A stretch of 64,000 nt of DNA. It comes from Eledone cirrhosa. Lineage: Eukaryota. Where the stretch lies: positions 15,252,001 to 15,316,000 of the forward strand of contig OZ024746.1 in the NCBI GenBank assembly GCA_964016885.1, written 5' to 3'. The notes beneath the pieces are model-generated. The model had not been told where the DNA came from and searched no databases. It saw nothing but the letters and a program-made list of their open reading frames with translations. The position numbers and the translations under genes are program-made. Below are positions 29,276 to 29,425 of the stretch, piece after piece (positions within the stretch are counted from its first letter, which is position 1; every line of letters begins with the position of its first letter).

Positions 29276-29313
29276 CCTTTACCGGTTTCGCAGTTCTTCT
29301 GCTTTTCAAAAGG
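29276..29313 (-). ncRNA. Minimal hammerhead with U3-A8 variant core (family C, left arm)
   Basis: Exact reverse complement of 29388-29425. Confidence 0.8.
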
Positions 29314-29387
29314 TGAGTTGAGATGGAGGGTCTGTGGTTTTCTCACATCGGATGTGAGAAAAACCACAGACCCTCCATCTCAACTCA

Positions 29388-29425
29388 CCTTTTGAAAAGC
29401 AGAAGAACTGCGAAACCGGTAAAGG
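29388..29425 (+). ncRNA. Minimal hammerhead with U3-A8 variant core (family C)
   Basis: cctt-TTGAAAA-gcag-aagaa-ctgc-GAAA-ccgg-TA-aagg: all helices pair, stem III is the palindrome accggt, GUA cleavage triplet. Confidence 0.8.

What the first reader, a model, noticed from the sequence alone, without database searches (positions are those of the whole stretch)
29276..29425. Hammerhead with naturally swapped catalytic-core pair (UUGAAAA instead of CUGANGA)
Seen: a 38-nt motif with perfect stems I and II, palindromic stem III and a GUA site, but with C3U and G8A together. The same core occurs in all copies that include it (29276, 29388, 36408, 49207). Established: C3-G8 form a tertiary Watson-Crick pair in the active hammerhead, and compensatory swaps can retain activity. 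Inference: a functional variant family that canonical CTGANGA searches miss. The arms at 29202-29498 are almost identical, suggesting recent insertion.
Basis: partly seen in the sequence, partly recalled or inferred. Interest (0 to 1): 0.76.

Follow-up and report, generated by a model that had tools for sequence, protein, structure and literature searches.

The report
Penelope retrotransposon hammerhead, U3-A8 core
The motif is a real hammerhead-shaped RNA sequence in the end repeat of a jumping gene with over ten thousand copies in this genome, likely an octopus; it is predicted to cut itself slowly in pairs, this copy is likely inert, and the swapped core pair was already published in 2011 and 2014.

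Summary
The 38-nt motif is there (29388-29425 +, 29313-29276 -). It is the minimal type I hammerhead in the terminal repeat (pLTR) of a Neptune-like Penelope-like retrotransposon (PLE). There are 10,256 exact copies genome-wide, and an intact 4.7-kb parent with reverse transcriptase and GIY-YIG frames was found. The window insert is a short head-to-head stub; read-through RNA would fold into a 149-bp hairpin, so this copy is likely inert.

U3-A8 is not new. Perreault 2011 reported it in nature, and Cervera 2014 in Schistosoma PLEs (about 1,300 hits; a UUGAAAA core is in the supplement). This scan also noted it before on other DNA (9 findings, at least 5 genomes).

Added here: U3-A8 is fixed in five related families. 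A, C and E share only 55-59% protein identity, and E, found by protein alone, has a different, fully paired stem II. A more distant family keeps C3-G8. Against a needed cut: family C (2,001 exact copies, young) has lost conserved A13. Cleavage and expression are untested. Verdict: a new member of a known kind.

The parts
29388..29425 (+). Minimal type I hammerhead motif; U3 29392, A8 29397, G12 29412, predicted cut after A17 (29421)
29276..29313 (-). Second, identical hammerhead motif in the inverted arm; U3 29309
29351..29500 (+). Main arm: 3' part of the PLE pLTR, 5'-truncated 34 nt downstream of the putative TATA box of the intact element
   Evidence: 96.7% identical to the pLTR of intact element L334; first 150 nt identical to copy L002 on contig C1
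29501..29563 (+). PLE 'tail' (about 62 nt) present on one arm only; in tandem elements it runs on into the ORF1 start
   Evidence: 10 of 10 inverted pairs found among 29 loci have one long and one short end
29201..29349 (-). Inverted 5'-truncated arm, ending at the short end (no tail)
29168..29203 (.). (TA)18 microsatellite at the left junction (target repeat)
   Evidence: 61 of 63 family ends counted in L001-L060 run into (TA)n
29562..29631 (.). (AT)35 microsatellite at the right junction
36381..36582 (+). Another family copy with tail; U3-A8 kept, G12 changed to A, stem I mismatch variant
49174..49315 (+). Another family copy, short end; intact core, stem I mismatch variant (motif starts 49206)
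58796..59050 (.). Truncated inverted pair of the same family, lacking the U3-A8 half of the core

Best explanation
The motif is the minimal hammerhead carried in the terminal repeat of a very abundant Penelope-like retrotransposon, likely of the Neptune type; in intact tandem elements two same-strand copies are predicted to pair through their palindromic stem III and cut the RNA slowly, likely with help from the element's protein, while this window's head-to-head stub is likely inert. Shown: motif anatomy; position in the pLTR 199 nt upstream of the ORF1 start and about 1 kb or more downstream of the GIY-YIG frame; 10,256 exact copies; intact parents; tail and inversion structure; (TA)n targets; U3-A8 fixed in five families with changed but paired stem II. 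From the literature: U3-A8 replaces the C3-G8 tertiary pair and was reported active in vitro; PLE minimal hammerheads cut weakly as dimers; one PLE hammerhead needs the element's protein. Inferred: that this variant cleaves; that U3-A8 arose once in the ancestor of families A-E; that the stub arose by truncated reverse transcription from the two tail start sites into a (TA)n target.
For: Motif and shuffle control. Copy number: 5,171 + 5,085, control 0. Parent: L334 has pLTRs 4,689 nt apart, a 409-aa ORF1 and a 775-aa RT-EN frame, 96.7% identical to the window arm. Pfam GIY-YIG E 2.3e-6 above cut-off; RVT_1 E 4.6e-6 at 26.9 bits, below its 29.6 cut-off. U3 and A8 with both positions left free: A1 33 of 33, A2 51 of 51, B 26 of 26, D 14 of 14 distinct rows; 22 of 22 descriptor hits downstream of endonucleases in 30 protein-selected loci. 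Family E, found by protein only, has U3-A8, a different 5-bp stem II and a GUC site in 6 of 6 printed copies. Among representatives of A, B, C and D, 26 of 38 motif positions are invariant against 51 of 217 flank positions. Four pairs change on both sides (21 of 500 shuffles reach this; slid controls 0-2). Two motif copies co-fold into the dimer, -20.3 kcal/mol against -6.4 per monomer. Literature.
Against: No cleavage or expression data. Family C has A13C in all 37 matched rows and only three A-U pairs in stem I, yet has 2,001 exact copies and copies 98-99% identical. Stem I is mismatched in A2 and B and weak in E, whose minimal motif prefers another fold in prediction. Co-folding of B, D and E motifs did not give the hammerhead dimer as lowest-energy fold. 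Old family D mostly has U-U at the base of stem II. Frangieh 2024 found hammerhead mutants did not affect insertion in vitro and saw no reads ending at the cut site. The covariation count rests on 7 related sequences and is weak. Families A-D were collected by DNA similarity, which favours conserved motifs.
Confidence: 0.68

Rival explanations
1. The motif is hammerhead-derived but kept mainly as a structural RNA element (dimerisation through the palindrome, or a protein-binding or promoter element); cleavage is negligible or dispensable.
For: Young family C amplified to 2,001 exact copies with A13C. The stem III palindrome and the U3-A9 strand are the same in the majority sequences of A-E while stem I decays in A2, B, C and E. 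PLE insertion in vitro did not need cleavage. Naiads lack canonical hammerheads yet amplify.
Against: A, B, D and E keep all catalytic positions and a cleavable triplet (GUA or GUC). The youngest A1 subfamily has the best-paired stems. A non-catalytic role would not obviously need a paired 3-8 position.
Confidence: 0.24
2. A dead relic: C3U and G8A were two independent decay mutations in an AT-rich master copy, and all copies share them by descent only.
For: Both changes are towards A/T in an AT-rich region. Identity among copies of one family is expected from descent. Only 35 exact C3 copies and no C3-G8 copy of this haplotype exist, so no intermediate lineage is seen.
Against: U3-A8 persists across families whose proteins are 55-59% identical and whose flanks have diverged, with stem II replaced by a different paired sequence in E and compensated in C.
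Confidence: 0.06
3. The insert is a MITE-like DNA transposon or a hairpin RNA gene, and the hammerhead is incidental.
For: A near-perfect 150-bp inverted repeat; weak microRNA-model matches at 29302-29399, below gathering score.
Against: The arms are the pLTR of an RT/GIY-YIG element, junction points vary between loci, and 10 of 10 pairs have the one-sided PLE tail.
Confidence: 0.02

Closest known systems
U3-A8 minimal hammerheads of Cercyon PLEs in Schistosoma mansoni (Cervera and De la Pena 2014, PMC4209133)
   Same: Minimal type I hammerhead in PLE terminal repeats; U3-A8 in place of C3-G8; UUGAAAA core listed in their supplement; mostly single dispersed motifs, some opposite-strand pairs 100-700 bp apart.
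   Different: Different phylum; at least 10,256 exact copies against about 1,300 heterogeneous hits; shorter stem II, no extra base after A9 in family A, 6-nt palindromic stem III. Whether the two U3-A8 cases arose independently was not tested.
Natural U3-A8 hammerheads (Perreault et al. 2011, PMC3088659)
   Same: The same core covariation, described in several natural examples and noted as earlier proven active in vitro.
   Different: The passages read do not tie those examples to PLEs or cephalopods.
Neptune/Nematis-type EN+ Penelope-like elements (as described in Craig et al. 2021, PMC8557442)
   Same: RT followed by a CX2-5CxxC linker and C-terminal GIY-YIG; pLTR, inverted 5'-truncated copy, one-sided tail, (TA)n targeting.
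   Different: Tail about 62 nt rather than 30-40; long repeat-rich 3' UTR; ORF1 overlaps the RT frame in -1 phase at a conserved slippery heptamer (an optional feature in their Fig. 1 legend).
PAc (Poseidon) element of Anolis (Frangieh et al. 2024, PMC11167929)
   Same: Hammerhead at the pLTR-ORF junction; two fixed 3' ends defining a tail; AT-rich targets.
   Different: PAc has a C3-G8 core overlapping the start codon; here the core is U3-A8 and lies 199 nt upstream of the ATG.

Membership tests
Hammerhead ribozyme (type I, minimal) | Three-stem junction with conserved core U4 G5 A6 A9, G12 A13 A14, A15.1-U16.1, H17 | tested here: met
   for the window pair; not met in the 36408 copy (G12A) or family C (A13C)
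Hammerhead ribozyme (type I, minimal) | Watson-Crick pair between positions 3 and 8 | tested here: met
   U3-A8 in families A-E; C3-G8 in family S
Hammerhead ribozyme (type I, minimal) | Stems supported by covariation | tested here: inconclusive
   stem II compensated in C and replaced in E; stem I weak or mismatched in A2, B, C, E; 21 of 500 shuffles reach the both-sides count
Hammerhead ribozyme (type I, minimal) | Site-specific self-cleavage | not testable with these tools
   needs an in vitro assay or RNA end data
Hammerhead ribozyme (type I, minimal) | Match to an Rfam hammerhead model | tested here: inconclusive
   none among 150 listed of 492 matches; 342 not shown
PLE minimal hammerheads (Cervera 2014) | Located in the PLE terminal repeat, with a short palindromic stem III able to form a dimer | tested here: met
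PLE minimal hammerheads (Cervera 2014) | [quoted passage not shown] | tested here: not met
   family A goes from A9 straight into stem II; the Drosophila-type and small-palindrome variants in that paper also depart from the consensus
Penelope-like elements (EN+) | Reverse transcriptase with DKG and GxKF motifs plus GIY-YIG endonuclease | tested here: met
   775-aa frame of L334; Pfam hits on other copies (RVT_1 below curated cut-off)
Penelope-like elements (EN+) | pLTRs in tandem or inverted arrangement and one-sided tail | tested here: met
Penelope-like elements (EN+) | Single ORF (canonical form) | tested here: not met
   ORF1 and RT-EN overlap in -1 phase in A, E and S; an optional frameshifted ORF1 is in the Fig. 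1 legend of Craig 2021
Neptune clade | CX2-5CxxC linker before a C-terminal endonuclease with CCHH; (TA)n preference | tested here: met
   C-x4-C-x2-C linker in the frame; 61 of 63 ends at (TA)n
Neptune clade | Phylogenetic placement with reference Neptune rather than Nematis elements | not tested
   no named reference PLE sequences were in the trees

The most novel reading that the evidence does not exclude
A whole octopod PLE clade fixed a U3-A8 hammerhead long ago and kept it as a dimerisation and RNA-packaging signal whose cleavage can be switched off. Family A (intact core, over 10,000 copies), E (GUC site, new stem II), C (A13C, 2,001 copies) and S (C3-G8) form a natural series in one genome that would show that PLE hammerheads are selected for their fold and palindrome more than for cutting.
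Probability: 0.22. Interest if true: 0.58.

Novelty: new member of a known kind. Interest (0 to 1): 0.27.

Why it matters
The core swap itself is published, so the headline adds a host group and a copy number, not a concept. The modest value is practical and comparative. CUGANGA-only searches undercount hammerheads in this genome by over ten thousand. One genome holds young sister families with an intact U3-A8 core, a predicted dead core (A13C) and a canonical core, which makes the open question of what PLE hammerheads are for more directly testable.

Tried and rejected
Repeat finder on the whole window was swamped by microsatellites. Rfam gave only sub-threshold microRNA-model matches at the palindrome. 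Sequencing runs: no RNA holder listed. Laying contigs of 4 of the 6 listed runs skipped the 112 nt that hold the motif, so it says nothing on variants or cleavage; it did show loose ends at 29501 and near 29561. A possible intron from the GUA site to 29517 was tested by one exact junction pattern: 0 genomic copies, which is uninformative because PLEs retain introns. C3-G8 copies of the window haplotype: 0 of 35 C3 matches. Automatic alignment could not align families E and S to A, so they are not in the pair counts. The careful IQ-TREE search did not finish; only the quick tree and a FastTree tree are used. Single-hairpin folding downstream of the slippery sites showed no strong shared structure; pseudoknots were not modelled. 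Lunse 2017 and Przybilski and Hammann 2007 are not held. MITE, microRNA and pure decay were considered and rejected (see rivals). No earlier notes exist for this genome.

Full report
1. Observation. The 38-nt motif lies at 29388-29425 (+) and 29313-29276 (-), with 4-bp stems I and II, a U3-A8 core, GAAA, a 6-nt palindromic stem III and a GUA site. A strict descriptor finds 2 such motifs in the window and none in 200 of 200 local shuffles. The two motifs sit head to head in arms of 149 and 150 nt that differ by one indel, between (TA)n runs. The copies at 36408 and 49206 share U3-A8 but have a mismatch in stem I, and 36408 has lost G12. A truncated pair at 58796-59050 lacks half the core.

2. 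What it belongs to. The window lies in a 3.0-Gb genome. An exact 37-nt pattern occurs 5,171 + 5,085 = 10,256 times, control 0. In 60 evenly spaced 10-kb stretches of contigs C1-C7 (599,800 bases) a profile gave 10 hits, 5 with a complete motif; that would scale to roughly 25,000, a rough figure. Walking upstream from longer copies led to a GIY-YIG endonuclease and a reverse transcriptase. Locus L334 holds an intact unit: an inverted short copy, a pLTR with tail, a 409-aa ORF1, a 775-aa RT-EN frame and a second pLTR 4,689 nt later, 96.7% identical to the window arm. The protein has DKG and GxKF motifs, a C-x4-C-x2-C linker and a C-terminal endonuclease, the anatomy Craig et al. 2021 give for Neptune and Nematis PLEs; the two clades were not told apart. 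The closest named proteins are from Octopus bimaculoides (77% over 62% of the query) and Argonauta (62%), so the host is likely an octopod (inference).

3. The window insert. It starts 34 nt downstream of the putative TATA box of the intact pLTR and has no ORF. One arm ends at a short end, the other runs about 62 nt further. This asymmetry holds in 10 of 10 inverted pairs found among 29 loci, and 61 of 63 counted ends run into (TA)n. Inverted truncated copies, a one-sided tail and microsatellite targets are described PLE features, and Frangieh et al. 2024 trace the tail to two reverse-transcription start sites. A read-through RNA of either strand would fold into a hairpin of about 149 bp at -257 kcal/mol that buries the motif, and the two motifs are on opposite strands. 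This copy is therefore likely inert. The first 150 nt are identical to a copy on another contig, which fits a recent insertion.

4. Is U3-A8 under selection? Sharing within one family proves little, so I looked at relatives. With positions 3 and 8 left free, U3-A8 was in 33 of 33 A1, 51 of 51 A2, 26 of 26 B and 14 of 14 D distinct rows; 27 further rows were unclassified and left out. These rows were gathered by DNA similarity, and overlapping loci may repeat a place. Family C came from the random sample and family E from a protein-only search. A, C and E share 55-59% amino-acid identity and group together apart from family S (43-49%) in a midpoint-rooted tree (quick tree without E). E has U3-A8, a different 5-bp stem II, the same palindrome and a GUC site in 6 of 6 printed copies (the 30 of 31 count fixed A8 by pattern). 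S has a canonical C3-G8 core. Among single representatives of A, B, C and D, 26 of 38 motif positions are invariant against 51 of 217 flank positions (gaps count as differences and sites are not independent). Pair counts on 7 sequences give 4 pairs changed on both sides, reached by 21 of 500 shuffles, which is suggestive only. Only 35 exact C3 copies of the window haplotype exist, all with A8. Together this rejects pure decay and points to one old swap; its direction rests on one outgroup family and on C3-G8 being the general state.

5. Results against a needed cut. Family C has A13 replaced by C in 37 of 37 matched rows and three A-U pairs in stem I, yet it has 2,001 exact copies and 98-99% identical members. 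A13 is part of the GAAA consensus; that its loss nearly abolishes cleavage is recalled, not from a call. No intact C frame was seen in the 11 C regions fetched, so C may be mobilised in trans. Stem I is mismatched in A2 and B and weak in E, and predicted co-folds of B, D and E do not give the hammerhead dimer as lowest-energy form, whereas A1 does. In vitro, PLE minimal hammerheads cut weakly even as dimers, and the Anolis one needs protein and is dispensable for insertion. Nothing here measures cleavage or expression.

6. Mechanism. Most likely (0.68): the pLTR promoter drives RNA through tandem units; two same-strand motifs pair through the palindromic stem III; U3-A8 stands in for C3-G8 in the active core; slow, probably protein-assisted cleavage trims the RNA. 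Separately, reverse transcription from two start sites into (TA)n produces thousands of truncated, often inverted stubs like this one. The main rival (0.24) is a hammerhead-derived structural signal with dispensable cleavage.

7. Comparison with what is known. Perreault et al. 2011 (abstract and passages) report that C3-G8 covaries to U3-A8 in several natural hammerheads and cite in vitro activity. Cervera and De la Pena 2014 (parts 1-2 of 4 of the text; supplement passages, one supplement file not searched) report U3-A8 in Schistosoma Cercyon PLEs, about 1,300 hits, and list a UUGAAAA core. Also seen: Craig 2021 (passages and supplement rows), Frangieh 2024 (parts 1-2 of 4; reference passages), a 2026 retrozyme preprint (part 1 of 5; its supplements are closed), two reviews (passages) and the giant squid genome paper (passages). 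Lunse 2017 and Przybilski and Hammann 2007 could not be read and may hold cephalopod examples or rates. I found no report of this variant in cephalopods in searches or supplement searches; the library lacks most subscription journals. The scan's own notes hold 9 similar findings in at least 5 other genomes.

8. Verdict. A real PLE minimal hammerhead of a published U3-A8 subtype, in a likely new host group and at high copy number. New member of a known kind; interest 0.27. The sister-family series (intact U3-A8, A13C, C3-G8) and the conserved frameshift signal are the parts worth following.

Noticed in passing
L334:4492-4579; L333:5827-5911; L262 near 6030; L268 near 4710: ORF1 overlaps the RT-EN frame in -1 phase, with a U-UUU-UUA slippery heptamer in the ORF1 frame at the same place in families A, C, E and S (43-59% protein identity); 14 of 14 A-family rows have it. 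Likely a programmed -1 frameshift. One paper search gave no hit; Craig 2021 lists an optional frameshifted ORF1 for PLEs.
   Followed up: partly
L197-L226 (family C): Young PLE family with a fixed A13C change in the hammerhead core and 2,001 exact copies: a candidate natural catalytic null.
   Followed up: partly
window 29419-29517 (+): The GUA cleavage triplet overlaps a 5' splice-site-like sequence, and a pyrimidine tract ending in UAG lies at 29517; an intron here would remove the cut site. No spliced genomic copy found by one exact pattern.
   Followed up: partly
window 8043 (+), 9131 (+), 34387 (-), 9483 (-), 22768 (-), 23846 (+): Canonical CUGANGA hammerhead motifs of at least three other repeat families; relatives of two of them recur in other loci.
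   Followed up: no
window 28301-29167 (-): The left flank is an open fragment of a non-LTR reverse transcriptase (identified from recalled motifs), 92% identical to a copy in L191; the PLE stub sits in a (TA)n run at its edge.
   Followed up: partly
window 23146-23589 (-): Weak match (27% over 172 aa, E 1e-5) to the endonuclease region of the parent, likely a fragment of another PLE.
   Followed up: no
L107-L136, L262-L265 (family S): Very young sister family with many intact 775-aa frames and a C3-G8 hammerhead that has a U-U mismatch at the base of stem II, as old family D does.
   Followed up: partly
L187:5125-5448 (-): A family C-like copy in which a 32-nt unit holding the first half of the core is tandemly repeated several times.
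   Followed up: no
L334:3050-3140: CCAAT-like and TATA-like boxes upstream of the motif are shared by families A, B, C, D and S: a putative pLTR promoter.
   Followed up: no
window 29929-30128: A 200-base assembly gap (N) about 360 nt to the right of the insert.
   Followed up: no
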